Positions 990 through 56,706 are shown, numbered from the stretch's first letter. The stretch: DNA of 64,000 bases from Mustelus asterias (GCF_964213995.1 NC_135803.1:72602001-72666000); one strand, 5' to 3'. Made by a program: numbers and translations. The notes: generated by a model from the letters alone, not told the origin.

Positions 990-1300
990 ATAGAATACCT
1001 ACAGTGCAGAAGGCGGCCACTCAGCCCATCGAGTCTGCACTGACAATCCAGGCCCTATCCCTGTAACCCCACATATTAGTCCCTCTTACCTATGCAAACT
1101 GGGACACTAAGGGGTAATTTAGCATGGCCAATACACATAACCCACACATCTTTGGACTGTGGGAGGAAACCGGAGCACCCAGAGGAAACCCAGGCAGACA
1201 CATGGAGAACATGCAAACTCCACACAGACAGCGACTCATGCCGGGAATCAAACCCGGGTCCTTGGAGCTGTGAGGCAGCAGTGCTAACCACTGTGCTACC
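990..1300 (-). mobile_element. HE1-like tRNA-derived V-SINE
   Basis: A box GGTAGCACAGTGGTTAGC, B-box-like GGTTTGATTCCC, V core GGGTTTCCTCTGGGTGCTCCGGTTTCCTCCCAC, CR1-like tail. Confidence 0.9.
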
Positions 1301-3192: not shown

Positions 3193-3518
3193 CATAGAAT
3201 CATAGAAACCCTACAGTGCAGAAGAGGCCATTTGGCCCATCGAGTCTGCGCCAACCACAATCCCACCCAGGCCCTACCGCCATATCCCTACATATTTTAC
3301 CCGCTAATCCCTCTAATCTACGCATCTCAGGACACTAAGGGGCAATTTTAGCATGGCCAATCAACCTAACCTGCACATCTTTGGACTGTGGGAGGAAACC
3401 CACACAGACACGAGAAGAATGTGCAAACTCCACACAGACAGTGACCCAAGCCGGGAATCGAACCCAGGTCCCTGGAGCTATGAAGCAGCAGTGCTAACCA
3501 CTGTGCTACCGTGCTGCC
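3193..3518 (-). mobile_element. HE1-like SINE nested in a CR1 3' fragment (about 2958-3720, +)
   Basis: Same head, core and tail as the other copies; CR1 sequence resumes on both sides. Confidence 0.9.
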
Positions 3519-7545: not shown

Positions 7546-10098
7546 TTCAACTCCTTTCTTCCCCATTTGCTTATCTAGTTTTCCCCTGAAGGCATCTATG
7601 CTATTCATCTCAATGATCCCTTTTCATACCGAGTCCCACATTTGTGGGGAATAATGTAGATTGTCATGGAGATATTGAAGCCGATTCAGTGTCTAGAGAT
7701 ATCACCAGTGGGCAATACACAGTTGAAGAAAGGCTATGGCCAGGGTTGTGACAGAGCTGGAGGAGGAGAACCTATTGCTGGATATACACTAGCTTGGTAC
7801 AGGTAGAATTCAAACCAGCTAAGGGTAGTTCCAATGAAGTGGACCACAGAAACATGACGGAGGATGATAGGACTAACTACTGGATGGTGCAGAAGGATCT
7901 TGAATGAAAGGCCAAAATTTCCAAAGACAGATAGATGGGTTTCTGGACTGCAGAGGTTCATTTTCAGCAGTTTGTTCGCTGGAAGTCTCAAGTTCAACAA
8001 TACATAGAATTGCATAATTTCTGCATTAAGAAACAGGGCATCCAATCTATGCTGCTGCTATGCTACTCTCATTGTACAAGAAACTCTTCCCTTTCTAATT
8101 ACCTCCACTCACCCTAACACATATCCCTCTGTCTTCCTCCTTCTGCTATTCCCATTACTAAATCTAAACTTTAATAGGGTGAGAACCAGTCAGGGATTAC
8201 CCTTCCCAATAACACCTTTGTAGTTTGAATTTTTAAAATATTAGTCGCCAAACATATTGATTACTATGGTATTCCAGTACGCAGAGCTCACGGAGGACCT
8301 CTGGTAGCCTGATACAGCAGCATTTCAGAATCAAACGGGTACACAAAATAACTGGTCAAGTGGAATTGAACCAAGACATTTGTCAACACCACCTATCTTT
8401 GTCCAATTTTGAAAACTGATATTTTCAACTCCCGAGTCCTTATTTATTTTGCAATACAACAATGGGCAATGTCTTCGGGAACACATTTGTCCAAGACATC
8501 AGGTGTTTTACCAAGGAAGGTCCAACAGGTTATACAATGATGCAGTACTAGGACTGCAACACTGGAGGTCACTAGTAGTTGGCTGTCTTTAGCAAAGTCA
8601 GTCAGCTGAAAACTGGTGCTTCTACAAGTGGAGAGTGGATAATTCAGCATTTTAATTTGCTCCCACAGAATTTATTTCTTTAAATTCCTGCCATGTAGTC
8701 AGTTTCCAGAATTCGTTCCCATGAAATTTCAAATCAGTTAATTTCAAACAAAGAAAGCAGTAAATGCACAGTTTACTTGGCAATATATTAACAGCTAACA
8801 ATGGGGAAACCAAAATCTTTTGCAAATGCAAACTGTAAAAGGTGTCAAAGGAAGGCTGGTGTCAATTTGGGATCAAATGGATCTTGTGGAGACAGAGGGC
8901 AAGGCTTGGGTACTAAATGAGTACTTTGAATCTGTTTTCACCAAAGAGAATAGAATGCTGTCAATACAGCAGTAAAAGCAGTAACGATATTGGGTAGGAT
9001 TGGTCCGGATGCAAGGATGGAAACTGCAGAGTTTCTGGTCTTCCAATCCTCCCAAGATATGGAGGGAGGCCAAAGGACTATAAATTGTTATAACGGGTGG
9101 AGTGGTTGGGGAGAGGGAAAGAAATAAACTCAGCAACTGCAGACCAGTTAGCCCAGATTCTGTTATGGGTAAATTGAGATATAATCCAAACCAAACTGGT
9201 ATTTGGAAAAGTATGGACTTAAAATGATCAACACAGACTCTTGAATACAAAAATCATGTTTGATTAACTTCATTGCATCCTTTGATGAAATAACAGAGGG
9301 GTGATGTGGCAGCACAGTTGATTTTTTGTGCACATTCACAAGGTGTTCAACAAAGTACCATATTAAAGATCTGTAAGCAAATTCAAGCCCGTGAGATTAA
9401 GGGATAGTGGCAACATGGACAGAAAATTGGCAATTGCTGTTTTTCTGAACAAGAGGGAAGTAGAAAATGCTGTTTCCCATAGGCTGACATTTGGATCAAT
9501 GCTGTTTTTGATGTATTGACTTAGATACACGGGGCATAATCTCAATTTGCCGATTGTAAGAAAGTCAGAAATGTAGTAAGCAATGAGGATAGTAACAATT
9601 CAGGAGGGCATGGACAAACAGGTGAAAACGATAGAGAATTAGCAGATGAAATTTAAATGCAGGGAAATGTGAAGCAATACATTTTGGTAGTGTGATGATA
9701 CTGTGCCTTTAGGAAATGTATTCATATCATTTTTCTTGTCAGGGGTATGTTTGGAATTCAGCTGTGTTTTACACAGTGCCAATCTGCAAAACAGGCAGCT
9801 CACATGCTGAAAATGCAGGCAAATGATTGACTTTAGCTAATGATATGTTTGTTTTAATCTGAACTAATGCATTTTTGCTTATTTGGATTTTCCTCTGGGG
9901 TTTCAGAGTAGGGTTATTAGGTTGATTGACATCGAGTCATGGCTTAAGGGGAGGAGCTAATATTACAGGGTAAAGCATGCAGCATCTGCCAGGTTCTGAT
10001 AGGTGCAAGGTGTCTCTCTCTCTTGCTGTAGGCTGCTGTTTGGAACCCAAGAGAAATAATTCTCTCTCACCAAAGGTATTCTGGCGACTTGAGGACTG

Positions 10099-10918
10099 TA
10101 AGAAGTTTAACACCACCAGGTTAAAGTCCAACAGGTTTATTTGGTAGCAAAAGCCACACAAGCTTTCGGAGCTGCAAGCCCCTTCTTCAGGTGAGTGGGA
10201 ATTCTGTTCACAAACAGAGCATATAAAGACACAAACTCAATTTACATGAATAATGGTTGGAATGCGAATACTTACAACTAATCAAGTCTTTAAGAAATAA
10301 AACAATGTGAGTGGAGAGAGCATCAAGACAGGCTAAAAAGATGTGTATTGTCTCCAGACAAGACAGCCAGTGAAACTCTGTGGGGGTTACAAATAGTGTG
10401 CCATGAACCCAATATCCCGGTTGAGGCCGTCCTCGTGTGTGCGGAACTTGGCTATCAGTTTCTGCTCAGCGACTCTGCGCCGTCGTGTGTCGTGAAGGCC
10501 GCCCTGGAGAACACTTACCCGAATATCAGAGGCCGAATGCCCGTGACCGCTGAAGTGCTCCCCAACAGGAAGAGAACAGTCTTGCGTGGTGATTGTCGAG
10601 TGGTGTTCATTCATCCGTTGTCGCAGCGTCTGCATAGTTTTCCCAATGTACCATGCCTCGGGACATCCTTTCCTGCAGCGTATCAGGTAGACAACGTTGG
10701 CCGAGTTGCAAGAGTATGTACCGTGTACCTGGTGGATGGTGTTCTCACGTGAGATGATGGCATCTGTGTCGATGATCCGGCACGTCTTGCAGAGGTTGCT
10801 GTGGCAGGGTTGTGTGGTGTCATGGTCACTGTTCTCCTGAAGGCTGGGTAGTTTGCTGCGGACAATGGTCTGTTTGAGGTTGTGCGGTTGTTTGAAGACA
10901 AGAAGTGGGGGTCCTACG
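10099..10918 (-). mobile_element. Penelope-like element, 3' portion (GIY-YIG endonuclease C-terminus plus pLTR)
   Basis: ORF 10387-10635 LRQRMNEH...PVGEHFS...EQKLIAKFRTHEDGLN is typical of PLE endonucleases. 9-bp TSD TGAGGACTG at 10090-10098 and 10919-10927. CpG-rich, so probably young. Confidence 0.9.
10156..10195 (-). ncRNA. Minimal type I hammerhead ribozyme in the Penelope pLTR
   Basis: Minus strand: CUCAC-CUGAAGA-AGGGGC UUGCA GCUCC-GAAA-GCUU-GUGUG. Both core boxes, stem II and a palindromic stem III are present. Confidence 0.75.
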
Positions 10919-11359
10919 TGAGGACTGGCAGCCCAAGTACAAGCATGTAAGCCTGTGTGTCACCAACTGATTCTGAAGTGGAGTTTAAGTCTATAAGAGG
11001 AATATTGCTCGAATTGGAAAATAGTTGGGGTCTCGTCTAACTGCAAAATATACCTTGGGGTATCTGATCAGGTACCTTAACAGTAGGAAGAATGCAGAGT
11101 ACAAACTAAATGGCATAACTTTGAAGGGAAGCTCAAGACTTGATTGTATACACACAAATCTTTGAAGGATTTCAAGTTGAGAAGGCCATTAAATAACATA
11201 TGGAATCCTTAAATGCATTATTAGAAGCAGAGTGTACAAAAGGAAGGTGGTTGTACCAAACTTTTATAAAACACTGGTTAGGCTTCAGCTGAAAAACTGT
11301 GCTCATTTCTGGGAAGTATATCCAGGCATTGGAGAGGATGCAGATGACTTTAGTATTCA

Positions 11360-13050
11360 AGGAATGCATGTGGGCTTTATGGCTAGGCCAGCATTTATTG
11401 TCTGAGAAGGTGGTGGTGAACTGCCTTCTTGAACTGCTGCAGTCCACATGGTACAGGTACACCCACAGTGCTGTGAGGGAGTTCCAGAATTTTGACCCAG
11501 AGACAGTGAAGAAGCAGTGGCACATTTCCAAGTCAAGATGGCAAATGGCTTGGAGGGGAACTTCCAGGTGGCGATGTTCCCATGCATTTACTGTCTTTGT
11601 CATTCTAGATGCTAGTTGTTAGGGTTTGGAAGATGCTTTCCAAGGAGTTGCTGCAGTGCATCTTGCAGATGGTACACATTGCTGCCACTTAGAGGAAGCG
11701 AATGTTTGTGGAAGGGGTGTCAATCAAGTGGGCTGCTTTGTCATGGATGGTGTCTCGCTTCTTAGTTGGAGCTACTATCATCCAGGCAAGGGGACAATAG
11801 GGGATTTTCACAGTAACTTCACTGCAGTGTTAATGTAAGCCTACTTGTAACACTAATAAATAAACTTCAAAGTTTAGTATTCCATCACACTCCTGACTTG
11901 TGCCTTGTAGATGGTGGACAGGCCTTGGAGAGTCAGTTGGAGAGTTACTTGTCACAGGATTCTTGGCCTCAAACATGTTGTAGCCAAAGTATTTACTGGC
12001 CATTGCAGTTCTCTTTCGATATTGGGGGAATTCAGCAATGATAATGCCATTGAATGTCATGGGGTGATGGTTAGATTCTCTTGTTGGCAATAGTCATTGC
12101 CTGGTACTGGTGTGGTATGCATGTTACTTGCCTTTTGTCAGCCCATGCCTGGATATTGTCCAGGTCTTGCTGAATTTGGGCATGGGCTGCTTTAGTATCT
12201 GAGTCGTCGCGAATGGTAAACATGATCAATGAACATCCCCACATCTGACCTTATGGTGGGAGGAAGGCCATTGATGAAGCAGCTGAAGATCACTGGACCG
12301 AGAACATTACCCCAGGAACTCCTGCAACGATGTCCTGGAGCAGAGATAACTGACCTCCATCTTCCGTTGTTCTAGGCTCCAACCAGCAAAGAGATTTCCC
12401 ACTGATTCCATTTTTGCTAGGGTCCTTTGATGTCACACTTGGTCAAATGTTGCCTGATGCCAAGTGCTGTCAACTCTTGCCTCACCTCTGGAATTCAGCT
12501 CCTTTTTCCACATTTGAACCAAGGCTGTGATGAGGCCAGTAGCTGAGTAGCTCTGGCAGAACCCAAACGGAGTGCCAGTGAGCAGATTATTGCTACGCAA
12601 GTGCACTTGATACACTGCTGATGACCCCTTCCATCATTTACTGATGATCAAGAGTAGACTGATAAGTTAGTAATTGGCTGGGTTGGATTGGCCCCGTTTC
12701 TTGTGCAAGGACATACCTGGGCAATTTTGCTGGGGTTGCTGGGTTGATGCCAGTGTTGTACCTGTCCTGGAACAGCTTGGCTAGGGTCATGGCAAGTTCT
12801 GGAGCACAAGACTTCAGTACTATTGCCAAAATATTACCAGGATCCTGTAGCCTTTGCAGCATCCACTGCCTTCAGCCACTTTTTGATATCACAGGGAATG
12901 AATTGACTTGGATGAAGACTGCGATCTCTGATGAGGGGACCTCTAGAGGAGGCTGAGATAGATCATCCATGTGGCACTTCTGGTTGAAGATTGTAGAAAA
13001 TGCTTCAGCTTGATCTTCGCACGGTTGTGTTGGGCTCCCCGTCATTTTAA
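11360..13050 (-). mobile_element. Second CR1-clade LINE family relic, with a SINE tail inserted at about 11795-11875
   Basis: PGNI.AIVLKSCAPELA..LAKLFQ remnant; 3'UTR motif AATAAATGCTGGCC. Confidence 0.75.
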
Positions 13051-13749
13051 GGGGTTGGGAAACTTGTGCAGCCTTCTCCTCCAGAAAGTGATACCAAGAA
13101 TGAGACATAGTTATTTGAAAAGACTGGAGAAGCTGGGATTGTTTTCCTCATATCAGAGAATGTAAAGAGGAGATTGGTAGAAATATTCAAACCATGATTG
13201 GTTTCGATGGAGTAAATAAGCAGAAGTATTTCTTACAGCAGAAAGGCCAGTAACCACAGTAGATAGATTGAAGGTAATTGGCAAAGAACCAGAGGTGACA
13301 CAAGGAAATAATTTTCTCACATTAGGTTGAGATTTGGTATGTTCTGTCTGAAACGATGATGTGGTGGAAGCAGATCCAATAGCAGCATTCGAAAGAGATT
13401 GGGATAAAAAAGTACAGAGCTAATAGGGAAATAAACAGGACCAATTGGATAGGCTCTATCCACAGCATGGGCAGTGTGGTCCAGATGTACTCCTATTGGA
13501 GCACCTTCATATGAAAATGTCTAGTTTTTAAATCTTTGGTTTAATTAAACGCAAAAGTATCTGAAGGCGAGAGAGTGAAATTAAATGAGAAAAAATATTC
13601 ACAAGCACTAGAGTTAGGAGATGGGTGCTGACATTTAAATAGAAGCCCCTGATGTAGCTCAACTAAAGAACTTTGTTATTCAATCATTTATAAAAAGGTT
13701 CTATTTCTGTCCTAACTTCAGGCATCCTGAAAAATGCATCCTTAATGGG

Positions 13750-30670: not shown

Positions 30671-30719
30671 CTGTCTAATGTAATTGTGTTTAGTAGAATT
30701 TAATTAAAGCTAGTTCGTT

Positions 30720-33268
30720 ACCGTACAGCCCAAGGGAAGTGGAAGTACGGATATGTCAGGAGATACTGGATAGGTGCAGGAAAAATAGGGTTGTCGTCGT
30801 GGGAGACTTCAATTTCCCTGGTATAGACTGGAAATCGCTGAGAGCAGGGACTCTGAATGGGGAGGAATTTGTAAAATGCGTACAGGAGGGTTCCTTGGAA
30901 CAATATGTAGATAGCCCGACTAGAGAGGGGGCTATACTGGACCTCGTACTGGGGAATGAGCCCGGTCAGGTCTTCAAGGTTTCGGTAGGGGAACATGTGG
31001 CAAATAGTGACCACAATTCTGTTAGCTTTAGGATAGTGATGGAAAAGGATGAGTGGTGTCCCAAGGGTAAAGTGTTGGATTGGGGGAAGGCTAACTTTAG
31101 TGGGATTAGGCAGAAATTGGCAGCTCTTGATTGGGAGAGGCTGTTTGAGGGTAAATCCACATCTGGCATGTGGGAGTCTTTTAAGGAACAGTTGTTAGGG
31201 CTACAGGACAGGCATGTGCCTGCTAAAAAGAAGGATAGGAAGGGTAGGATTCGAGAACCGTGGATAACCAGGGAAATTGAGGGACTGGTCAAAAAGAAAA
31301 GAGAGGCGTATGGTAGGTCCAGGCAGCTAAAAACGGAGGGAGCTCTGGAGGAGTACAAAGAAAGTAGGAAAGAACTCAAACGGGGAATTAGAAGAGCAAA
31401 AAGGGGTCACGAAATGTTCTTGGCAGACAGGATTAAGGAGAATCCCAAGGCATTTTATTCATACGTTAGGAACAAAAGGGTTGTCAGGGAAAAAAAATCG
31501 GACCTCTCAGGGACAAAAGTGGGGAATTATGCTTGGAGCCCAAAGAAGTAGGGGAGATCCTAAATGAATACTTTGCATCGGTATTCACAAAGGAGAGGGA
31601 TGTGTTGACTGGGAGTGTCTCGGAGGGGAGTGTTGAACCGTTGGAGAAAATCTCCATTACAAAGGAGGAAGTGTTAGGTTTGTTAGAGAATTTAAAGACT
31701 GACAAATCCCCAGGGCCTGATGGAATCTATCCAAGGCTGCTCAGGGAGACGAGAGATGAAATCGCTGGGCCTCTGACGCAAATCTTTGTCTCGTCACTGG
31801 ACGCAGGTGAGGTCCCAGAGGATTGGAGGATAGCTAATGTGGTCCCGTTATTTAAGAAGGGTAGGAAGGATAGCCCGGGTAATTATAGGCCGGTGAGCTT
31901 GACGTCCGTGGTGGGGAAGTTGTTGGAGAAGATTCTTAGAGATAGGATGTATGCGCATTTAGAAAGGAATAAACTCATTAACGATAGTCAGCATGGTTTT
32001 GTGAGAGGGAGGTCATGCCTCACTAACCTGGTGGAGTTTTTTGAAGAAGTGACCAAAATGGTTGACGAGGGAAGGGCCGTGGATGTCGTCTATATGGACT
32101 TTAGTAAAGTGTTTGACAAAGTCCCTCATGGTAGGCTGGTGAAAAAGGTTGGATCTCATGGGATAAAGGGGGAGGTGGCTAGATGGGTGGAGAACTGGCT
32201 TGGTCACAGAAGACAGAGGGTGGTAGTGGAAGGGTCTTTTTCCGGCTGGAGGCCTGTGACTAGTGGTGTTCCGCAGGGCTCTGTATTGGGACCTCTGCTG
32301 TTTGTGATTTATATAAATGATCTGGAAGAAGGTGTGACTGGGGTGATCAGTAAGTTTGCGGACGACACAAAATTGGCAGGACTTGCAGATAGTGAGGAGC
32401 ATTGTCAGAGGCTACAGAAGGATATAGATAGGCTGGAAATTTGGGCAAAGAAATGGCAGATGGAGTTCAATCCTGATAAATGCGAAGTGATGCATTTTGG
32501 TAGAAATAATGTAGGGAGGAGCTATATGATAAATGGCAGAACCATAAAGGGTGTAGATACGCAGAGGGACCTGGGTGTGCAAGTCCACAGATCCTTGAAA
32601 GTGACGTCACAGGTGGAGAAGGTGGTGAAGAAGGCATATGGCATGGGCTTGCCTTTATAGGATGGGGCATAGAGTATAAAAGTTGGGGTCTGATGTTGCA
32701 GATGTATAGAATGTTGGTTCGACCGCATCTGGAATACTGCGTTCAGTTCTGGTCGCCACACTACCAGAAGGACGTGGAGGCTTTGGAGAGAGTACAGAGG
32801 AGGTTTACCAGGATGTTACCTGGTATGGAGGGGCTTAGTTATGAGGAGAGATTGGGTAAACTGGGGTTGTTCTCCCTGGAAAGACGGAGGATGAGGGGAG
32901 ACTTAATAGAGGTGTATAAAATTATGAAAGGCATAGATAGGGTGAACGGTGGGAAGCTTTTCCCCAGGTCAGTGGGGACGTTCACGAGGGGTCATAGGTT
33001 CAAGGTGAAGGGGGGGGGGGGGGGGGGGGAGGTTTAACACGGATATCAGACGGACATATTTTACACAGAGGGTGGTGGGGGCCTGGAATGCGCTGCCAGG
33101 CAAGGTGGTGGAGGCGGACACACTGGGAACGTTTAAGACTTATCTAGACAGCCATATGAACGGAGTGGGAATGGAGGGATACAAAAGAATGGTCTAGTTT
33201 GGACCAGGGAGCGGCGCGGGCTTGGAGGGCCGAAGGGCCTGTTCCTGTGCTGTATTGTTCTTTGTTCG
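30720..33268 (+). mobile_element. Young 5'-truncated CR1/HER1-type LINE (APE endonuclease C-half, RT, 3'UTR), frameshifted
   Basis: ORFs 30739-31551 (VVVGDFN, LDLVL, SDH), 31533-32660 (KSPGPDG, NYRPVSLTS, GVPQGSVLGP, FADD) and 32693-33037. Ends in a (TGTTCTT)n tail. Confidence 0.96.
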
Positions 33269-39662: not shown

Positions 39663-40498
39663 CAGCGGTGAGCAACCTGTGGCCCACCCGAGTTCGGAGT
39701 GTGGCCCACGAGACATTTTTCACCGTTGGCCACATGCAGGGTTGCCACAACCTGTTGATTTCTGTCATAGAAATCATAGAAAATCATAGAAACCCTACAG
39801 TGCAGAAGGAGGCCATTCGGCCCATCGAGTCTGCACCGACCACAATCCCACCCAGGCCCTATCCCCACATATTTTACCCGCTAATCCCTCTAACCTACGC
39901 ATCCCAGGATTCTAAGGGGCAATTTTTAACCTGGCCAATCAACCTAACCCGCACATCTTTGGACTGTGGGAGGAAACCGGAGCACCCGGAGGAAACCCAC
40001 GCAGACACGAGGAGAATGTGCAAACTCCACACAGACAGTGGCCCGAGCCGGGAATCGAACCCGGGACCCTGGAGCTGTGAAGCAGCAGTGCTAACCACTG
40101 TGCTACCGTGCCGCCCCACTCCACACAGACAGTGACCCGAGCCGGGAATCGAACCCGGGACCCTGGAGCTGTGAAGCAGCAGTGCTAACCACTGTGCTAC
40201 CGTCCACATAGTTATTTTCCTACTGGCATGACTGAAGTGAGACACATGTAAAGCAAGGGCAAATGAAGTGAGGTACATGCTGAATGTACACAACATTGAC
40301 TGTGAGAGAATGATAGTTTTAATATATAAATAATTAAGCATTTTCTACAACTCATGAAATATTAAGCATGTATTAAATGTATTTAATCTTATTCATGGGG
40401 TCATGGTTAGCAAACAAGCTTGATTTCAATCTTGCGGCCTTCTGAGATGGAGGGGGGGCCATTCATGTGGCCCACTCACTAGCTGAGGTCATCCACTG
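39663..40498. mobile_element. Non-autonomous hAT (Charlie-like) MITE containing a SINE insertion
   Basis: Imperfect TIRs CAGCGGTGAGCAACCT...AGGTCATCCACTG with subterminal GTGGCCCAC motifs. 8-bp flanks ATTTAGAA and ATTTAAGA match at 6/8. Confidence 0.65.
39766..40203 (-). mobile_element. Young HE1-like SINE with a tandemly duplicated tRNA head
   Basis: 40024-40109 is repeated at 40118-40203 with one mismatch. Confidence 0.92.
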
Positions 40499-41899: not shown

Positions 41900-42665
41900 T
41901 TGGCTCAGAGTTGCTCAACTAAAATCTGAGTTGCAGACAATGCGGGGCAGCATGGAGTAGGAGAGTTACCTGGACACTTCATTCCAGGAGGCAGTTACAC
42001 CTTTACATTAGGAAGAACCTTAAAAGTTGGTTAACGGTCAGGGACAGGAAATTGTGACCGTGAACTAGACAGGCAAGGGAAACCAGCATGCAATGATGCA
42101 GAAACCTCAGCCCCTGACTTTGTCCAACAGGCACAAGGTGCCTACTACCTGCGTGGATGACAAGACAACAAGATGATGAGTGGATTGGCCATGGCACCAT
42201 GGTGAAAGATGTCATTCAAATTCAGGGAGCAAAATGGAATGTGGTAGTGACAGGGGACAATATAGTCAGGGAATTCGATACTGTTCTCCACAGCTACAAC
42301 CAGGAGCTCCAAAGGTGATGTTGCCCCCCAGGGCCAGGGTTAAGGACATCTCCTCATGGCTAGAGAGAAGCCTGGGAGTGGTTTACATGGAAACTAATAT
42401 CGACATTACCCAAGAAAATCTGAGGAATGAGGAACAAAATTAAAACACAGATCAATGGCGATCTTCTCTGTTGACTGAGCCACATGCCAACTGGCATAGG
42501 GTCAAGCAGATTTAAGAATTAAATGTTGGGCTCAAGTGGCATAGGCAGCAGATGTTGCGATTCATGGTATAGTGCCAGGCATTGCTCGAGGAAGTGTGAG
42601 CTCTTCTGTTGGAATGGGCTGGGACCAGTGTCCTGGCCAATTGAATAACTAGGGCAGCGGAAAGG
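41900..42665 (+). mobile_element. CR1 ORF1 (esterase) relic
   Basis: Similar to the reverse complement of 24570-25360; contains a PRARVKDIS remnant. Confidence 0.7.
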
Positions 42666-42670
42666 GCTTT

Positions 42671-42990
42671 CATAGAATCGTACAGTGCAGGAGGCGGCCA
42701 CTTGGCCCATCAAGTCTGCACCGATCACAATCCCACCCATGCCCTATCCCCATAAGCCCATGCATTTACCCCAGCCAATCCCCCCCACACTAAGGGGCAA
42801 CCCAGCATGGCCAATCCACCTAACCTGCACATCTTTGGCTGTGGGAAGAAACCAGAGCACCCGGAGGAAACGCACGCAGACACAGAGAGAATGTGCAAAC
42901 TCCACACAGACAGTGACTCAAGCTGGGAATTGAAACCGGGTCCCCGGTGCTGTGAGACAGCAGTGCTAACCACTGTGCCACCATGCCACC
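42671..42990 (-). mobile_element. HE1-like SINE
   Basis: Full head, V core and tail. Confidence 0.9.
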
Positions 42991-43004: not shown

Positions 43005-45513
43005 TAAAAGACAAGGCTAAGAGTGGCTTCTGGTCCATAATGTTAAAGTGTCTCCCATACACATATTGATGGAACTTCTTTACCCCATATACTGTTGAAA
43101 AGCAGTATTGGGCTCAAGTGGCATAGGCAGCAGAGGTTGCGAGAATAGCCTTTTTCGGCCTTTGAGAGGGTTCTCAAGACATAGTCTATAGCTCTTTCAG
43201 ATCCATCATCTATCTTATGGGACAGCATTGCACCAATGCCATATGGAGAAGCATCACAGGTTAACACCAATTCCTTAGTTGTTTGAAATGCACCAATAAA
43301 CTTGATGAATGTAACAACTGTTTTAAAAGCTTCTCTCTGGGGCATCTTTCAAAACCAACGCTGGTGCTTCTTTCGCAGCATATGCAAGGGGGCCAATAGT
43401 GTCAAAATGTGGCAGAAAATGCCCATAGTAATTCACCATTCCCAAGAGTGACTTGAGTTCAGATGTGTTTCTGGGGGTCAGTACCTCCTTTATTGCTCTG
43501 ACTTTGTCTTCCATTGGGTGTAATCCTTGTGCATCCATGCAATAGTCCAGATAGGCTACCTCAGTGGCTGAAAAGTACATTCTCCTTTTTGGGGCAAACA
43601 CCAGGCTCTTGATAGCTCTTTAGCACCTCCTCTAAGTTAGCTAGGTGCTCAGCTTTGTCGATTCAGTTACCAAAATATCATCCAAGTATACGATGACCTG
43701 TGGAAGTCCTGGAAATAGACTTCCATTGTTTTCTGGAAGATAGCACATGCTGATGACACACCAAAAGGTAGGCATATATACTGAAACAAACTTTTGTACA
43801 TGTTTATCATAACATAACCTCAGGAAGCATTGTCTAACTCAAGATGCTGATGTGTGGCTCATATCCAGCTTGCATAAGACTGACCACTGTCCAGTTTTGC
43901 ATATAATCAATCTTCAATCTTGGGGATCGGATACTTATGAAACCATGTGGTAGTGGTCTTGCTCTAAAAAAAGGGGTTTGACTCTGGATCTACATAGATC
44001 TTCGCCTGGTGGCCCTTTATTTTACCTAGCACATTGCAAAAAACGTTCTCATACTTCTTCATTAATTCAGGCAGTCCCCCTTCCAGTACTTGGGAGATCT
44101 CCATCCAGTTTAACATGATTACCTTGAGCCAATCGTGGCCCAAAAGACATGGCCAGGCCCTTAGCCTGACACTATTACTACTGGGAGCTGAGCGTTCTGC
44201 TGCTGATAGCTTACACGTACGTGGTAGTACTCTTTATCTTAATGGCTTCTCCTCCAAGTTATTAGTTTTGCTGTGGTGCCCCTCAAACCCAATGGCTGGA
44301 CTCCTTTGTCAATATCAAAATGTGTGCTTTCCCATCACTGTGGCAGAGACTCCCATATCAACTTACATCTTTAAGGGCCTACCATTTGTGAAAAGCATCA
44401 TAGTGATGGGGCTACCTTGCTCGCTTTCATGTTGAACAATTAATGAACATTTGATCCTCAACACTAGACTCTTCCATACTATTCACTTGAGATGTATTGC
44501 TAACTCTGTTACCGAGTAGATTTGACTTACTTTTACATTGGTGCCTTTCCTGTGGCAGAAAAAAGCACTCAGCCTCTTTATACCTGCAGGCATCAGGGGA
44601 GCAATTACCCTGAAGTGGCTCTGAAATCAGTGCTCGAAGGTCTGTCTTAACTTGGTAACATAAGTTGCAGTAGTTTCCCCAGGGACTCTCCGACAGTTGA
44701 GATAAACTTAAAATCGCTGCAATATTACCGTTGGCTTTGGATTCAATTATCTCAGTGAATGACTTGATTCGGGCAACTTGGAGATGTGAGGCTGCATCTT
44801 AAAATTGTGGGCCTGAGTCCCACACACTCTCCTTTCTCTTCTCCCTCCTCTATTCCGTTGGCCTGAAAATACTAGCCCAAACACTCAACGTATTGTGTCC
44901 AATCCTTCACAGAGACATCACAAGGACCCTTCTGTCTGAATAAGGGTATATCTGCAAACATTCTTCTGTTTCTCAACTTGAACTGAACTTCAACATGACT
45001 TGTTACTCCCGATTTTAGGACTGCTTTTTTTTATCTTCGTCGTCAATGTTATAATTCCTGTTCACCAATTAGGTAAATAAAAGCGGCAATGTTTATTTAC
45101 ATATGACTGTAATGCAGAGGCTTGCAGCATTATGGCTGCCAGTCAGCTTTCAGGATTAAACTGATGGCCCACACTTGCTAGGGTGATTACCTCACCCTGG
45201 GTCATTAGGTTACATTTTAGCTTCATTTGAAGCAATTTTTAAAAGCGGCATCTCGGCCTTTTGGCTGAGATGCAAATGAGATCAAGCCTTGGAGGAGGTG
45301 CAATTCCTACTCCAATCAGCTTGGATCATGTAGATCAAGCCCAAGACAGGAGGTGAGAGCCCCGTCTTGTCAGCTTGGATCGGGAATGTCTCAACTGGAG
45401 ACTCTGAATTGGACTCGATTTGATTGAATTTTTAAAAAATTACCTCACCCTGGTTCCTGATTCGTTACCTAGGTCATGTGACCCTCTTGGCAGATTGCCC
45501 CTTAAAGAGAACA
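43005..45513 (-). mobile_element. Degenerate Ty3/Gypsy (Mag-like) LTR retrotransposon: 5' LTR 45047-45513, PBS, gag, protease, RT, RNase H; truncated before integrase
   Basis: LTR runs TG...CA with AATAAA and is followed by a PBS-like TTGACGACGAAG. Gag start resembles DWTQYVE.L.YF.ANGI. Zinc-knuckle remnant near 44560, D(T)G protease remnant near 44355, VYLDDIL near 43680, and LVLTCDASPYGIGA RNase H. Confidence 0.88.
45201..45438 (+). mobile_element. Short structured retroposon with a U2 snRNA-like 5' stem-loop, inserted in a Gypsy LTR
   Basis: 15-bp direct repeat ATTACCTCACCCTGG at 45186-45200 and 45439-45453. 45248-45271 matches U2 nt 4-27 at 22/24 positions. Contains several hairpins. Confidence 0.75.
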
Positions 45514-47260
45514 AAAACCACTGAGCAGGGAGGTGGAATAACTAAATAAAAGACTTTAAAGTTAAATAAAATGCTAAAGTGGTTATAATCATTTATAAGC
45601 ATATATTCAAAAATGTGCTTGAAAGTCAAAAACAAACAATTAAACCAAATTCAAAAGTGACAGGAAAAGCACAGATTAAATTGTGTTTTAGCGACTTAAT
45701 TACCGTAATGCAACTTTTCTGGTATTGAGTAACATTATTGATTATTAATATTTAGACTGGCAGTAGAATTGAAGTAATCATCCCTATTCCACTGTTAGTA
45801 GCTAATCAGAAACCTTCCATATCTTGGTATTTGTTACTGGAATGAATTTTTCAATGCTTTTCATGAGTATACGGAGCAATCATTTGCCATATCATTTCAA
45901 AGATTTGAAAGCAATTAGGATTTTTCAACTCCCATTGTGGCAGTTACACCATGTAACAGTTTAAGCTGAGAAATAACAAAGTATCAGTCGAAGCTGCAGT
46001 CTCCAACAGCTTCTTTCTGACACGTCGTCATGATTTAAACCACATTCTACATGCATGTATTTAAAAAATGAGCAGCAAAAGCTCAGCCGAGGACAGAAGT
46101 GTCAGAACGTTCTGGAAAGTGTACAGGACTGGCACTTCAATTTGCTCTGGTAAATAGATTAGGACAAAGGAACAAGATGAAAAAATAAGGTTTCTTTCAA
46201 TATGACGTGTTATATGCTTGGGTTTTTACTCTAGATATTTTTGGCTCCCTACAGTGTGCCAATGTTTTCACTTGTCCTAGTGCCTTAGAGTCAGAGTTTT
46301 ATAGCACAAAAAGAGGCCCTTCACCCATCATGTCTGTGCCAGCCAACAAGCACCTATCTATTCTAATCCCATTTTCCAGCACTGGGTCCTTATGCTATGC
46401 CATTTCAAGTGCTCATCTAAATGCTTCTTAAATGTGAGGGTTCCCACCTCTACCACCCTTTAAGGCAGTGACTTCCAAAATCCCACCATCTCCTGGATGA
46501 AAAAGGTTTTCCTCAAATCCCCTCTAAGTGTCCTGCCCTTTACCTTAAATCTATGCCTCCTGATTATTGGCCCCTCTATTAATTGGAAAGTTCCTTCCGA
46601 GCGACCCTATATCCCTCATAATTTTGTACACCACAATCTGATCCCCCTCAGCTCTCTCTGCTCTAAGGAAAACAATCCCAGCCTATCTTCATAGCTGAAA
46701 CGCTCTAGCCCAGACAACATCCTGGTTAATGTCCTCTGCTCCCTTTCGAGTGCAATCACATCCTTTGATACCAAGCAGAGTTTCAAAGCATGCCAGGTTG
46801 GTGAACAAATTTTTTTTTTAAACATTATTTTTTCCTGCTTCTTCAAGCAGTGGCCTGGGATGTTGGGCAAGGTTTTTGGCGAAGGGAGATTTAGAATTCC
46901 AATGAGAAAGGTTGAAGCACCAGAACAATGTACCAATGTGGGTAACAACTACCAGAGTGGGACAGGATGGGACAGAATTTAACAACAATTATACATTTGG
47001 AAATAAGGACATTGCAAGGAATAGAAAAAAAAATCAAAAGTTCTTGATCTGAATGCACAAAGCATGATGAACTAGTGGCAGAAAGAGGGGGAAAATGATT
47101 GATGTGATCATTATTAATACAAGGCTATCAAGGATGGGTAATATTCTAGGGCAAATATTTTTGGAAAGGCAGAAGGAATGACAAACATGTGGTAGCCCTG
47201 ATAATAAAGGATGACACAAGGACATTTGTGAGAAAGGATCTGGCTCAGCAGATCATGCAA

Positions 47261-48256
47261 TTGTTTGCGATTTACATAGATGCTTTGGAGTTGGGGACCA
47301 AGTGTAGTGTGTCAAAATTTGCAGATGACACTAAGATGGGTGGAAGAGCTGAGTGTGCAGAGGACGCTGAAAGTCTGCAAAGGGATTTAGATAATCTAAG
47401 TGAGTGGGCAAGGGTCTGGCAGATGGAGTACAATGTTGGTAAATGTGAGGTCATCCATTTTGGTAGGAATAACAGCAAAATGGACTATTATTTAAATGGT
47501 AAAAAATTGCAGCATGCTGCTGTGCACAGGGACCTGGGTGTCCTTGTGCAGGAATCTCAAGGAGTTGGTTTGCAGGTGCAGCAGGTAATTAAGAAGGCAA
47601 ACGGAATTTTGTCCTTCATTGCTAGAGGGATGGAGTTTAAAAATAGTGAGATTATATTGCAGCTGTATAAGGTGCTGGTGAGGCCACACCTGGAGTAGTG
47701 TACAGTTTTGGTCTCCTTATTTGAGAAAGGATATACTGGCACTGGAGGGGGTGCAGAGGAGACTCACTAGGTTGATTCCAGAGTTGAGAGGGTTGGCTTA
47801 TGAGGACAGACTGAGTAGACTGGGGCTATACTCTTTGGAATTCAGAAGAATGAGGGGAGATCTTATAGAAACATAGAAGATTTTGAAGGGAATAGATAAG
47901 ATAGAAGCAGGGAAGTTGTTCCCACTGGCGGGTGAAACTAGAACTAGGGGGCATAGCCTCAAAATAAGGGGAAGCAGATTTAGGACTGAGTTGAGGAGGA
48001 ACTTCTTCACACAAAGGGTTGTGAATCTGTGGAATTCCCTGCCCTGTGAGGCAGTTGAGGCTACCTCATTGAATGTTTTTAAGGCAAGGATAGATAAATT
48101 TTTGAACAGTAAAGGAATTAAGGGTTATGGTGAGCGGGGGGGGAATGATAAATGGAGCTGAGTCAACAAAAAGATCAGCCATGATCTTATTGAATGGCGG
48201 AGCAGGCTCGAGGGGCCAGATGGCCTATTCCTGCTCCTAGTTCTTATGTTCTTATG
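47261..48256 (+). mobile_element. CR1 LINE 3' fragment inserted into an older CR1 relic (about 46860-48440)
   Basis: KFADDTK, RPHLE and FFTQRVVNLWN; (TTCTTATG)n tail. Confidence 0.93.
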
Positions 48257-50249: not shown

Positions 50250-53200
50250 AACTTCCAGAGATAACTGATACATTGATACATCACTGTGTTTCTTCATCTA
50301 AGTTGTTATAACAGGCTGCAAATAGTTAAGATCCCAGCACTGATCCTTGTGGAACTCCACTATTCACTGCCTGCCAACATGAAAAAGCCCTGTTTATGTC
50401 CACTCTTGGTTAATCAATTCTCGATCCATGCTATTACCCCATGAATCCTTCCCTTGCCTATTAACCTTTTGTGCAGCACCTTATCAAATGCCTTCTGGAA
50501 TCCCAGATATACGACGTCCACTGGTCCCTCTTTATTTCCACACCAGTTACATCTCAGGATAATAAGGAGGGAAAAATTCAAGTACGGGAGAAAGTTAATG
50601 AGAAATATTAAGACAGAGTTTCTGCAGATATTTAAATAAAAGGGTTAACAAAATGAGTGTTGGTTCTATGGAAAGTCTGGGGATATATAATGGAAAATAA
50701 GGGGATGGCAGATGAATTGAATACGTATCTTGCATCAATCTTCACTATAGAGGATACAGAAGAGGGAGGAACTCAGGAAAATTACAATCACCAGGGAAGT
50801 GATGCTAAGAAAACTGTTGAAGCTGCGAGCTGATAGGTCCCTGCGTCCAGATGGACTTCATCCTAGGATCTTATGAGAAATGCTTAGTGAGATAGTTGAT
50901 ATTTGGTTTTATTATTTTAATTCCCTAGATTGAAATTCCATTAGTCAGAATGGGTGGAAACAGAAAGCAGGAAACTACAGGCCACTTAGCTTAATATTTG
51001 TCACAGGGAAAATAAGAGAAGCCAGAACTAAAGATGTTATAGCAGAGCACATGGAAGAAAATCAAGGCAATCAGGCAGGGTCAACATGGTTTTCTGAAAG
51101 AGAAACCATGTTTAACTACTTTACTAGAGTTCTTTGAAGGAATTACATCCTACGGATATAGGGGAACCAAGGCCTTCGAGAAGGCGCTACAAAGATTATT
51201 GTAAAGAAATAAAAGCTCAAGGTGTAGGGTGCAACTTATTGGCATGGACTGAAGATTGACTAGATAACTGGAAACAGAGGGTAGGCATAAATGCATCTTT
51301 CACTCTGGCAAGATGCAACACGTGGTGTGTCACAGGGATCAGTGTTGGGACCTTAACTCTCCACAATCTATATAAATAACATGGATGAAAGGACAAAGGT
51401 AAATTTGCTGATGGTTCAAAGATGAGCTGGGTAGTAAGATGTGACGAGAATACAGAGACTACAAAGGGATACAGAGAAGCGAGTAAGTGAGCAAAAACCT
51501 GGCAAATGGGAGTAAAATGGAGGAAAATGTGACATCCCCCTCGGGTCACGTTTTTAAAGAAAGAGAGAGGCACATCCCCTTTGGGGAGAAAATATCTGAA
51601 CTTACTAGCTGAAAATGTATTCAACCAATTCTTTAAAATTGGGGCATCACATTTCTAACCCCCCCAGTGGGACAGAAGTGGATTAAACAGACTATTTGGA
51701 GCAAAGTCTCAGATTGTAACTTATTTAATTAAATGTTACTCTTCCTGCTTAGGGACTTTCTCTAGTTTCAAAATGTATGTGCAGTATCTGTAGAATAATT
51801 TTCTGGTCCCCAGCATCACAGGTGTCAGTTTTCATCCAATTCGATTCACTCTACACAATATCAAGAAATGGGTGAAGATACTGGATACTGCAAAGTCTCT
51901 GGGCCCTGACAATATACCAGCAATAGTACTGAAGACATGTACTCCAGAACTAGCTGCAACCCTAGCCAAACTGTCCAGTACAGCTTCAATACTGGCATCT
52001 GCCCAATGTGGAAAATTGCCCCGGTAGTCCTATACACAAAAAGGACAAATCCAACCTGCCTAATGACCACTCTCGGACTACAATTGGATTCCAAACAGTT
52101 AAAAAAACTTCCTAAAATGGAAGAACATTTTTGCTCAAGCGAGTCCAGGAGACAACAGACAGCTTTGGGCTTAAAAACAGATAAAGGGATCATAGAATCA
52201 TAGAATCCCTACAGTGCAGAAGGAGGCCATTTGGCCCATCGAGTCTGCACCGACCACAATCCCACCCAGGCCCTACCCCCACATATTTTACCCGCTAATC
52301 CCTCTAACCTACGCATCTCAGGACTCTAAGGGGCAATTTTTAACCTGGCCAATCAACCTAACCCGCACATCTTTGGACTGTGGGAGGAAACCGGAGCACC
52401 CGGAGGAAACCCACACAGACACGAGGAGAATGTGCAAACTCCACACAGACAGTGACCCGAGCCGGAAATCGAACCCGGGACCCTGGAGCTGTGAAGCAGC
52501 AGTGTTAACCACTGTGCTACCGGATCTTTTACCAATCCTCAAAAACTGCAAGTAAAAGGCACTGCTGGAAAATGTCCCAGTATATTACTTAGGGTTATCA
52601 ACTCTGCTTGGACACATTCCTGAGGTTTTCACTTGACTTCCTGGCTCCAGCTATCCAATCCAGTTAAACAACCCATTATCCTCATCAATAACCATTTTAT
52701 AAAGAAACATTCAGTGGAACTGAAAAGTTAACATAACTTCCTTATGGCTTTTCTCCAGGATTGCTCATGCATGCTCAGGCAATTAATCTTTTAATTCCTG
52801 AAGAATCCAGGACAATCCTGGAAGGTTGATGACTGCAAGTACATCCCATGCATTTATCAATTATCTGCATTTTTAATCAGTTTCTCCAGAACACAAATTA
52901 AAGAGAAATAAACAAGAAATGTTAAGGACTTCTAATAATCGCTCCAGAATATCTCACTTAATAACTAACCACTACAGGTCAGAATGCAGCCCCACATTTC
53001 AAAAATGGAAAACGTTTTTGCAATTATACCTCAGCAACCTCAAAACATTCACTTTCCTGTTGGATTAATTAGAACCAATTTCACATATAACCACTGGTAA
53101 TGCATAGTAAACTATTCATGCTGTCTCACCCAGAGCACATCCAAACAAGTCCAAGCAATAGTAACATCTCAACACTGCATTTCATTTGACTTTGAATACA

Positions 53201-55146: not shown

Positions 55147-56706
55147 TAGAACATAGAAAAACTACAGCACAATACAGGCCCTTCAGCCCACAAAGTTGTG
55201 CCGAACATGTCCCTACCTTAGTGATTACTAGGCTTACCTATAACCCTCTATCTTACCAAGTTCCATGTACTTATCCAAAAGTCTCTTAAAAGACACTATC
55301 GAATCCGCCTCCACCACCGTTGCTGGCAGCCCATTCCACGCACCCACCACCCTGAGTGAAAAACTTACCCCTGACATCTCCTCTGTACCTACTCCCCAGC
55401 ACCTTAAACCTGTGTCCTCTTGTGGCAACCATTTCAGGAAAAAAACCTCTGACTGTCCACTCGATCAATACCTCTCAACATCTTATACACCTCTATCAGG
55501 TCACCCCTCATCCTTCGACTCTCCAAGGAGAAAAGGCCAAATTCACTCAACCTATCCTCATTAGGCATGCTCCCCATCCCAGGCAACATCCTTGTAAATC
55601 TCCTCTGCACCCTTTCTATGGCTTCCACATCCTTCCTGTAATGAGGTGACCAGAACTGAGCACAGTACTCCAAGTGGGGTCTGATCAGGGTCCTATATAG
55701 CTGCAACATTATCTCACGACTCCTAAACTCAATTCCTCAACTGATGAAGGCCAGTACACCATACGCCTTCTTAACCACAGCCTCAACCTGCACAGCTGCT
55801 TTGAGCGTCCTATGAACTCGGACCCCAAGATCCTTCTGATCTTCCACACTGCCAAGAGGCCTACCATTAATATTATATTCCGCCATCCTATTTGACCTGC
55901 CAAAATGAACCACCTCACACTTATCTGGGTTAAACTCCATCTGCCACTTCTCCGCCCAGTCTTCCATCCTATCAATGTCTCGCTGCAACATCTGACATCC
56001 CTCCACACAACACCTCCAACCTTTGTGTCATCAGCAAACTTACCAACCCATCCCTCCATTTCCTGATCCAGGTCATTTAAAAAATCACAAAGATTAAGGG
56101 CCCCAGAACAGATCCCTGGGGCACTCCACTGGTGACTGACCTCCATGCAAAATATGACCCATCTATAACCACTCTTTGCCTTCTGTGGGCAAGCCAGTTC
56201 TGGATCCACAAAGCAATGTCCCCTTGGATCCCATGCCCCCTCACTTTCTCAATAAGCCTTGCATGGGGCACCTTATCAAATGCCTTGCTGAAGTCCATAT
56301 ATACTACATCTGTTGCTCTTCCTTCATCAATGCGTTTAGTCACATCCTCAAAAAATTCAATCAGGTTCGTAAGGCATGATCTGCCTTTGACAAAGCCATG
56401 CTGACTATTCTTAATCATATTATACCTCTCCAAATGTTCATAAATCCTGCCTCTCAGGATCTTCATCAACTTACCAACCACTGAGGTTAGACTCATGGGT
56501 CTATAATTTCCAGGGTTATCGCTACTCCCTTTCTTGAATAAGGGAACAACATCCGCAATCCTCCAGAACCTCTCCCGTCTCCATTGATGATGCAAAGATC
56601 ATCGCCAGAGGCTCAGCAATCTCCTCCCTTGCTTCCCACAGTAGCCTGGGGTACATCTCCTCCGGTCCCGGCGACTTATCTAACTTGATCTTTTTCAAAA
56701 GCTCCA
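55147..56706 (-). mobile_element. CR1 LINE, 3' 1.55 kb (RT and 3'UTR), frameshifted
   Basis: KSPGPEE, NYRPMSLTS, DFSKAFDKV, GVPQGSVLGP, FADD and RPHLEYC in successive frames. Confidence 0.95.

What the first reader, a model, noticed from the sequence alone, without database searches (positions are those of the whole stretch)
45201..45438. Candidate U2 snRNA-headed, multi-hairpin SINE in a shark genome
Seen: an insertion in the Gypsy LTR is flanked by a perfect 15-bp duplication (45186-45200 and 45439-45453). A second direct repeat, AATTTTTAAAA (45234-45244 and 45427-45437), resembles an L1-type TT/AAAA target and brackets an inner unit 45245-45426. That unit starts with GCATCTCGGCCTTTTGGCTGAGAT, 22/24 identical to U2 nt 4-27. 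Both changes repair mismatches of U2 stem-loop I, giving an 11-bp stem with a UUUU loop that overlaps an octamer ATGCAAAT (45270-45277). Two homologous hairpins follow (45280-45327, 45333-45381). Each opens with AGATCAAG (U2 nt 24-31), closes with TCAGCTTGGATC, and has different but still pairing inner stems (TTGGAG/CTCCAA versus CAAGAC/GTCTTG). A small hairpin lies at 45388-45402. No tRNA A/B boxes were seen. Known: snRNA-headed SINEs (SINEU) are described from crocodilians, and U2-targeting LINEs (Keno, Utopia) exist. Inference: this is an independent elasmobranch U2-derived SINE, or a retrocopy of an undescribed structured RNA, with structure under selection.
Basis: partly seen in the sequence, partly recalled or inferred. 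Interest (0 to 1): 0.78.

Follow-up and report, generated by a model that had tools for sequence, protein, structure and literature searches.

The report
U2-headed short retroposon family in sharks
This is a front-clipped copy of a short, very abundant jumping element, likely from a shark or ray, that carries pieces of the U2 splicing RNA; I found this kind of element described in print only from crocodilians, and it likely spreads by borrowing a LINE's enzymes.

Summary
The insertion is real, and it is one copy of a large family. The 15-bp duplication, the hairpins (fold z = -4.1) and the U2 stem-loop I match are confirmed. In another species (organism A), 9,645 contigs lie on the stretch. 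Depth over the insert is about 10^4 times the flank (rough), empty LTR sites exist, and copies end at about 45430 in AATAAA plus an A-run.

(1) There is no inner duplication: 45201-45244 is family sequence. (2) This copy is 5'-truncated; the family continues upstream into a second, outer U2 piece ending at U2 nt 40, next to the Keno/Utopia target site. (3) One of the two 'stem repairs' (G45267) is private to this copy; 99% of depth has the U2 letter.

The two hairpins are a 53-nt duplication with 4 of 6 stem pairs changed on both sides. Best reading: an snRNA-headed SINE of the SINEU kind, probably independent of the crocodilian families and likely mobilised by an L1/Tx1-clade LINE. The true 5' end, partner LINE, promoter and Repbase/Dfam status are untested.

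The parts
45186..45200 (+). Left copy of the 15-bp target-site duplication
   Evidence: empty-site joints
45201..45430 (+). Body of the retroposon copy, 5'-truncated. The family runs at least 30 nt further upstream (U2 nt 32-40-like 9-mer plus a 21-nt spacer), and one contig shows a U2 stem-loop I beyond that.
   Evidence: depth rises at 45201; loose ends before 45201 in 166 X1 contigs and 10 X15 contigs share one consensus; joint 45271 to 45203 in table 5c
45201..45247 (+). Spacer between the outer and inner U2 pieces, with a small hairpin (45220-45233) and a U-run (45234-45241). Family sequence, not a target duplication.
45248..45280 (+). Inner U2-derived head: stem-loop I (U2 7-26 matched by Rfam), extended by 3 bp at its base, then a decayed match to about U2 nt 36 (by eye). 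G45267 is private to this copy.
   Evidence: U2 letters
45270..45277 (+). Octamer ATGCAAAT; no majority difference listed in the family; function untested
45280..45327 (+). Hairpin A, first copy of a 53-nt tandem duplication
45324..45333 (+). Linker resembling U2 nt 25-36 with a 2-nt gap (10 of 12 letters, by eye)
45333..45381 (+). Hairpin B, second copy; 4 of 6 middle-stem pairs differ from A on both sides and still pair
45388..45402 (+). Small 3' hairpin; other copies carry about 3 more letters here and a longer stem
   Evidence: tables 4, 7
45431..45438 (+). Decayed tail; other copies read AATAAA plus an A-run after about 45430
   Evidence: table 7: 75 X1 contigs, 10 X15 contigs
45439..45453 (+). 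Right copy of the target-site duplication
45047..45520 (-). Host LTR interrupted by the insert (ends approximate, inferred from depth and a primer-site-like motif); insert is antisense to it
43100..45046 (-). Decayed internal region of the host LTR retrotransposon (RT-RNase H remnants, many stops and frameshifts)

Best explanation
The insert is a 5'-truncated copy of a high-copy, non-coding, A-tailed short retroposon that carries U2 snRNA-derived pieces and was likely inserted by target-primed reverse transcription using the proteins of an L1/Tx1-clade LINE. SHOWN: 15-bp duplication, empty sites, very many related sequences in another species, one shared 3' end with AATAAA and an A-run, variable flanks beyond it, and a shared upstream extension that contains U2 nt 32-40. 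INFERRED build order: (1) a U2 5' fragment (to about nt 36) was joined to a hairpin-plus-tail body; (2) a 53-nt unit duplicated and the two hairpins diverged while keeping their pairing; (3) a second U2 fragment (to nt 40) plus about 65 nt of spacer was added in front, giving about 295 nt plus tail if the outer head starts at U2 nt 1. INFERRED working: RNA polymerase II makes the RNA from an outside promoter, because T4, T5 and T4 runs inside the body would stop polymerase III; the RNA is polyadenylated at AATAAA; a LINE protein takes it up through the A-tail and probably the paired hairpins. For the source of the heads I put about 55% on template switching to U2 RNA and about 45% on insertion of the master into a U2 gene at the Keno/Utopia site, which would also supply the promoter.
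For: (X1, organism A): 9,645 contigs laid; summed depth 173,396-368,275 over six bins 45210-45395 against 12-22 over 45520-45800, a ratio of 10,000-22,000 on a baseline of 16.8. Loose ends behind 45430 in 75 contigs start with AATAAA plus A-run and then disagree (agreement 0.64, median 229 nt). Loose ends before 45201 in 166 contigs share a consensus opening with TGTAGTATC, which is U2 nt 32-40 (numbering from PMC4640811). One contig runs from U2 stem-loop I through 13 letters that match U2 28-40 at 9 of 13, through the spacer and into 45203 (table 5c). X15 (organism G) shows the same ends in 10 and 10 of 215 contigs; 14 of 24 listed runs, from 7 studies and 6 labelled organisms plus one unlabelled, hold 0.33-0.48 of 33 words; I laid only one of these 14; 4 of 6 middle-stem pairs changed on both sides between hairpins A and B, none broken; chance 8e-4 (3.5e-3 with G-U) in a simple simulation. 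T-runs at 45215, 45236, 45259; 4 of 5 named shark or ray proteins among the best 120 are 66-70% identical to the window's RT, named birds, turtles, a lizard and a caecilian 38-61%. A 7SK retrocopy with an A-run in the same window shows that small RNAs are retroposed in this genome.
Against: The true 5' end was not seen: loose ends show only 30 letters, and the outer stem-loop I rests on one contig at depth 7. No partner LINE was found. The tool states that summed contig depth is no copy number; overlapping short contigs can inflate it, and the two flank contigs may be paralogues. The Rfam score is far below the U2 gathering cut-off (17.2 against 46). The insertion site does not read TT/AAAA and does not resemble the U2 target. 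With the family's majority letters the fold is weaker than in this copy (z -3.9 against -5.2 over 45201-45395), and 3 of 5 majority differences lie in a loop, so nothing shows selection on this copy. The stem simulation was made after seeing the stems and cannot exclude replacement of the stem by a local inverted copy. One named shark or ray hit is only 53% identical and one 70% hit is labelled Klebsiella, so the host group is likely, not proven.
Confidence: 0.8

Rival explanations
1. The insert is the 3' UTR of a longer autonomous LINE (Tx1, Keno or L1 type) and all short copies are ordinary 5'-truncated LINE ends.
For: The 5' end was not reached. A-tail and 15-bp duplication fit L1-clade LINEs. 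Some crocodilian Tx1 families carry U1 or U2 pieces and two prefer LTR retrotransposons (PMC4494074).
Against: The U2 pieces are 5' parts of U2 followed by foreign sequence, which is how 5' junctions look; Keno and Utopia 3' ends are followed by U2 nt 39 onward, which the tail consensus does not show. In the crocodilian Tx1 families the U2 piece is at the 5' end.
Confidence: 0.08
2. The copies are retro-pseudogenes of a functional, undescribed U2-like small RNA: U2 nt 1-40 with the branch-point arm, a U-run at about the place of the U2 Sm site, then 3' hairpins.
For: Layout resembles an snRNA; the U-run would lie at about nt 95-102 of the full-length form; strong fold; compensated stems; 7SK retrocopy nearby.
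Against: The U-run is followed by A, not the G of a canonical Sm site (consensus recalled), and one search lists no majority change there. AATAAA plus A-tail is not an snRNA 3' end. Two U2 heads and an internal duplication are typical of SINEU-1. No Rfam family reaches threshold.
Confidence: 0.07
3. It is a polymerase III SINE whose internal promoter arose from the U2 piece (A-box-like) and the repeated GATCAAGCC (B-box-like).
For: GATCAAGCC at 45280 and 45333 fits a loose B-box pattern (pattern recalled).
Against: The pattern occurs 27 times in the window against 26 expected. T4, T5 and T4 runs lie inside the shared body. Most copies include sequence upstream of the inner head. No tRNA found.
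Confidence: 0.03
4. The high depth reflects spread inside the LTR retrotransposon or a tandem array, not independent insertions.
For: The copy sits in an LTR; one contig of organism A bridges the element's 3' end into the same flank (record 7).
Against: LTR flanks reach depth 184-1,884, at least 90-fold below the body; joints show empty LTRs; sequences beyond the tail disagree among contigs. No second copy in the window.
Confidence: 0.02

Closest known systems
SINEU-1 subfamilies of crocodilians (Kojima 2015, PMC4494074; parts 1-4 of 5 of the text read, figures and supplements not available)
   Same: Short, non-coding, A-tailed, thousands of copies; U2 5' fragment as head; repeated addition of snRNA pieces at the 5' end; partial internal duplication; internal T-runs; frequent 5' truncation; promoter unknown.
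   Different: Host is likely an elasmobranch, whereas the paper found no SINEU outside crocodilians. No U1 piece seen. Copies look younger (4,885 of 9,645 laid contigs at 95% or more to this copy, in another species) than SINEU-1 (83-92% to consensus). Paired compensated hairpins are not described there. No Mariner target here. Homology of the bodies could not be tested.
Keno (Tx1 clade) and Utopia (NeSL clade), LINEs that insert in U2 genes between nt 38 and 39 (PMC4640811 passages and supplement rows; PMC6136364 passages)
   Same: The outer U2 piece stops at nt 40 and the inner ones at about nt 36, within 2 nt of that site.
   Different: No coding sequence; the tail is not followed by U2 nt 39 onward in the consensus of 75 contigs; this copy sits in an LTR.
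R2 SIDEs of Drosophila (PMC3414825, abstract only)
   Same: Short non-autonomous elements that use the promoter of their target gene; the abstract also reports U12 snRNA added to R2 5' ends by template jump. Both are the candidate routes for the heads here.
   Different: SIDEs stay in rRNA genes, cut themselves out with a ribozyme and are pieces of their partner LINE; none of that is shown here.
HE1 and SacSINE1, tRNA-derived SINEs of sharks and rays (table in PMC3747384, passage)
   Same: Short retroposons of the same host group.
   Different: tRNA heads and CR1-type partners; no tRNA head here.

Membership tests
snRNA-headed SINE (SINEU as a kind) | 5' region derived from U1 or U2 snRNA | tested here: met
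   19/20 to Rfam U2 7-26; upstream extension holds U2 32-40 in 166 + 10 contigs and stem-loop I in one contig. The first nucleotide was not seen.
snRNA-headed SINE (SINEU as a kind) | 3' poly(A) tail at a shared end | tested here: met
   AATAAA plus A-run behind 45430 in 75 X1 and 10 X15 contigs
snRNA-headed SINE (SINEU as a kind) | Many dispersed copies with one shared structure, not separate chimeras | tested here: met
   9,645 contigs, depth ratio about 10^4, shared junctions in organisms A and G, variable 3' flanks; copy number rough
snRNA-headed SINE (SINEU as a kind) | Short (under about 500 bp) and non-coding over the full length | tested here: inconclusive
   About 295 nt if the outer head starts at U2 nt 1; sequence upstream of the outer head not seen. 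No ORF of 120 aa overlaps the insert.
snRNA-headed SINE (SINEU as a kind) | Signs of LINE-type insertion (duplication, 5' truncation) | tested here: met
   15-bp duplication, empty sites, truncation at 45201
Crocodilian SINEU-1, -2, -3 families | Found in crocodilians | tested here: not met
   Window RT is closest to named shark and ray proteins; indirect
Crocodilian SINEU-1, -2, -3 families | Body homologous to a SINEU consensus | not testable with these tools
   Supplements and figures of PMC4494074 not available; no Repbase
Crocodilian SINEU-1, -2, -3 families | Mobilised by Tx1-Mar with preference for Mariner-N4 | not testable with these tools
   One insertion site only, in an LTR; no genome held
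Keno or Utopia U2-targeting elements | 3' end followed by U2 nt 39 onward | tested here: not met
   This copy is followed by the LTR duplication; tail consensus shows no U2 continuation. A minority of such copies is not excluded.
U2 snRNA gene or pseudogene (RF00004) | Match over the model at or above 46 bits | tested here: not met
   17.2 bits, model 7-26 only
tRNA-derived SINE (SINE2, e.g. HE1) | tRNA-like head with A and B boxes and no internal Pol III stop | tested here: not met
   No tRNA; B-box-like motif at chance rate; T4 and T5 runs inside

The most novel reading that the evidence does not exclude
The family's master copy is a hijacked U2 snRNA gene. A short element inserted at the Keno/Utopia site of a U2 gene, was transcribed from the upstream U2 promoter with the first 36-40 U2 bases as its head, and repeated this capture at least twice, leaving nested U2 heads. 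The paired, compensated hairpins are the handle for a Keno-like Tx1 protein that has lost U2 specificity. A young family with about 10^4 copies would make the open question of how snRNA-headed SINEs are transcribed directly testable, and the RNA, which keeps the U2 branch-point arm, might enter the snRNP pathway.
Probability: 0.25. Interest if true: 0.75.

Novelty: new member of a known kind. Interest (0 to 1): 0.52.

Why it matters
snRNA-headed SINEs lack an internal promoter, and Kojima 2015 leaves their transcription as an open question. The crocodilian families with stacked heads (SINEU-1) are old and dead. An abundant, younger, probably independent family in sharks or rays would show that this design arose more than once in vertebrates. 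It would also offer intact masters in which promoter, partner LINE and hairpin function can be tested. In practice, such copies can be mis-annotated as U2 pseudogenes.

Tried and rejected
No whole genome is held, so no BLAST count of copies. No second copy in the window. Raw-read runs X21 and X22 laid 0 reads: no test. Expression: no RNA holder is on record; X15 is RNA only by guess and contigs cannot show a discrete transcript, so expression is untested. Scans for copies in viral, metagenome and prokaryote collections: 0, 0 and 0 matches for exact patterns; 34 loci from gapped patterns, none with similarity beyond one 14-nt match, taken as chance; phages, no match. Inner target duplication: rejected. 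Family-wide perfect 11-bp stem: rejected. B-box as evidence for Pol III: rejected, 27 seen against 26 expected. Preference for this LTR site or for U2 genes: not seen in most copies. mir-218 and mir-205 hits in Rfam: E 3.5 and 4.5, chance. A short likeness between hairpin B's start and the 3' part of the 7SK copy was seen by eye but does not appear in blastn at E 10. Covariation across copies and a covariance model were not possible without copy sequences. Not in print as far as searched: ten full-text searches returned no shark or ray snRNA-headed SINE; subscription journals, Repbase Reports, Dfam and SINEBase are outside the library. Earlier scan notes hold no look-alike sequence.

Full report
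OBSERVATION. The 15-bp repeat lies exactly where stated. Such repeats are rare: 2 in the window at 100-600 bp spacing, 1 in 30 shuffled windows. The stretch 45245-45426 folds at -73.5 kcal/mol, z -4.10, 0 of 200 shuffles as stable; 40 random stretches of the window reach at best -2.6. Rfam aligns 45251-45270 to U2 positions 7-26 at 19 of 20 letters, but at 17.2 bits, far below the cut-off of 46. The host is a decayed LTR retrotransposon on the minus strand (RT-RNase H, E 4e-11). The host animal is likely a shark or ray: among the best 120 relatives of the window's longest RT frame, 4 of 5 named elasmobranch proteins are 66-70% identical and one 53%, while named birds, turtles, a lizard and a caecilian are 38-61%. 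This excludes little formally but makes a crocodilian host improbable.

IT IS A FAMILY. No genome was held and the window has one copy, so I used public runs. Of 24 listed runs, 14 from 7 studies hold 0.33-0.48 of 33 sampled words. I laid four runs on 44900-45800. Two raw-read runs gave nothing and are no test. In X1 (organism A) 9,645 contigs were laid. Summed depth is 173,396-368,275 over 45210-45395, 184-1,884 over the LTR flanks and 12-22 beyond 45520. The ratio to the flank is 10,000-22,000. The tool warns that this is no copy number, so I read it as thousands to tens of thousands. X15 (organism G) shows the same profile in 215 contigs. Joints that skip about 250-340 letters show empty LTR sites. 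One X1 contig bridges the element's 3' end into the same unique flank, so this insertion may be shared with organism A.

THE ENDS. Behind 45430, 75 X1 and 10 X15 contigs continue with AATAAA and an A-run and then disagree, which marks a fixed 3' end with dispersed flanks. The window's tail is a decayed form of it. Before 45201, 166 X1 and 10 X15 contigs share a 30-letter consensus that opens with TGTAGTATC. This is U2 nt 32-40 by the U2 rows and numbering in PMC4640811. One contig (depth 7) passes from a U2 stem-loop I through 13 letters matching U2 28-40 at 9 positions, through the 21-nt spacer, into 45203.

STRUCTURE. Five places differ between this copy and the family majority in table 3 (129 further rows, for the whole stretch, were not shown). 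At 45267, 99% of depth reads A as in U2, so that 'repair' is private. At 45363, 99.6% reads T, which restores a pair in hairpin B. Three lie in the loop of hairpin A. The 3-bp extension at the base of stem-loop I and the octamer show no majority difference and so appear family-wide. With majority letters the fold over 45201-45395 is still significant but weaker (z -3.9 against -5.2). The best evidence for constraint is between hairpins A and B, a 53-nt duplication: in the 6-bp middle stem 4 pairs changed on both sides, 2 are unchanged and none is broken, with chance 8e-4 in a simple after-the-fact simulation. By eye, each hairpin starts at a position equal to U2 nt 36: 45273-45280 and 45324-45333 resemble U2 28-36 and 25-36 with gaps.

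MECHANISM. Duplication, A-tail and 5' truncation point to target-primed reverse transcription by a LINE acting in trans; the L1/Tx1 clade is inferred from the A-tail, the 15-bp duplication and the SINEU precedent, not from a partner found here. Internal T4, T5 and T4 runs argue against polymerase III, the B-box-like motif is at chance rate, and AATAAA fits polymerase II. U2 has no internal promoter (PMC4494074), so the promoter must lie outside. Two routes could give the stacked heads. Template switching onto U2 RNA is the route Kojima favours. Insertion of the master into a U2 gene is the other: Keno and Utopia cut between U2 nt 38 and 39, and the U2 pieces here stop at nt 40 and about 36. 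That route would also supply the promoter, as the rRNA gene does for R2 SIDEs (PMC3414825, abstract). The data do not separate the two. Most copies are not followed by U2 nt 39 onward, so any U2 targeting is lost or rare.

COMPARISON AND NOVELTY. It works like SINEU-1: stacked snRNA heads, partial duplication, A-tail, thousands of copies. It meets the tested features of the kind but is not filed under any crocodilian family: the host differs and body homology could not be tested, because figures and supplements of PMC4494074 were not available. Ten full-text searches found no shark or ray snRNA-headed SINE. A repeat this abundant may well sit in Repbase or Dfam, which I could not search. Papers seen: PMC4494074 parts 1-4 of 5; passages of PMC4640811 (plus a search of its 10 supplements), PMC6136364, PMC7922186, PMC7245038, PMC5381603, PMC3747384 and PMC5786205; abstract of PMC3414825. 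Recalled without a call: U2 positions 4-6 in vertebrates, the position and consensus of the Sm site, the A- and B-box patterns, the T-run rule for this case, and the HE1 label for the other SINE in the window. Unchecked scan notes describe similar U2-headed elements in other animals, which suggests the design recurs and tempers the surprise.

VERDICT. A real, abundant, U2-headed short retroposon, likely of sharks or rays; new member of a known kind; interest 0.52. The hijacked-U2-gene reading has probability about 0.25 and would deserve 0.75.

Noticed in passing
window 16919-17192, minus: 7SK RNA retro-pseudogene (Rfam 157.6 bits) cut off before the 3' hairpin and followed by 8 A and a long G-run; no clear target duplication.
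   Followed up: partly
window 990-1300, 3192-3518, 19157-19436, 22729-22966, 39774-40115, 42670-42990, 52190-52522 and shorter pieces: A roughly 320-bp repeat in at least 7 long copies, up to 96.7% alike; probably the known elasmobranch tRNA-derived SINE HE1 (recalled, untested). The copy at 39774-40203 has its 3' 85 bp repeated in tandem.
   Followed up: no
window 45398-45799 (record 7): A contig of organism A bridges the element's 3' end into the unique flank, while a second flank contig starts at 45445 with 77 unlaid letters; the insertion may be shared between species, and the two contigs may be paralogues.
   Followed up: partly
window 45272-45364 (table 5): Contigs in both X1 and X15 skip about 91 letters from the inner U2 head to the 3' arm of hairpin B; others skip 34-76 letters. 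These may be subfamilies with fewer or different hairpins.
   Followed up: no
window 30697-33037, plus: Long EN-RT LINE remnant in three frames, CR1-like by its relatives; related pieces at 47150-48040 and 55304-56680.
   Followed up: partly
window 21147-21533, minus: Septin-like GTPase exon (PF00735, E 4e-7); the finding may lie in or near this gene.
   Followed up: no
window 10390-10959, minus: GIY-YIG remnant (E 2e-4), possibly a Penelope-like element.
   Followed up: no
window 42526-42560 and 43108-43142: A 35-bp near-perfect direct repeat 582 bp apart at the far end of the LTR-retrotransposon remnant; unexplained.
   Followed up: no
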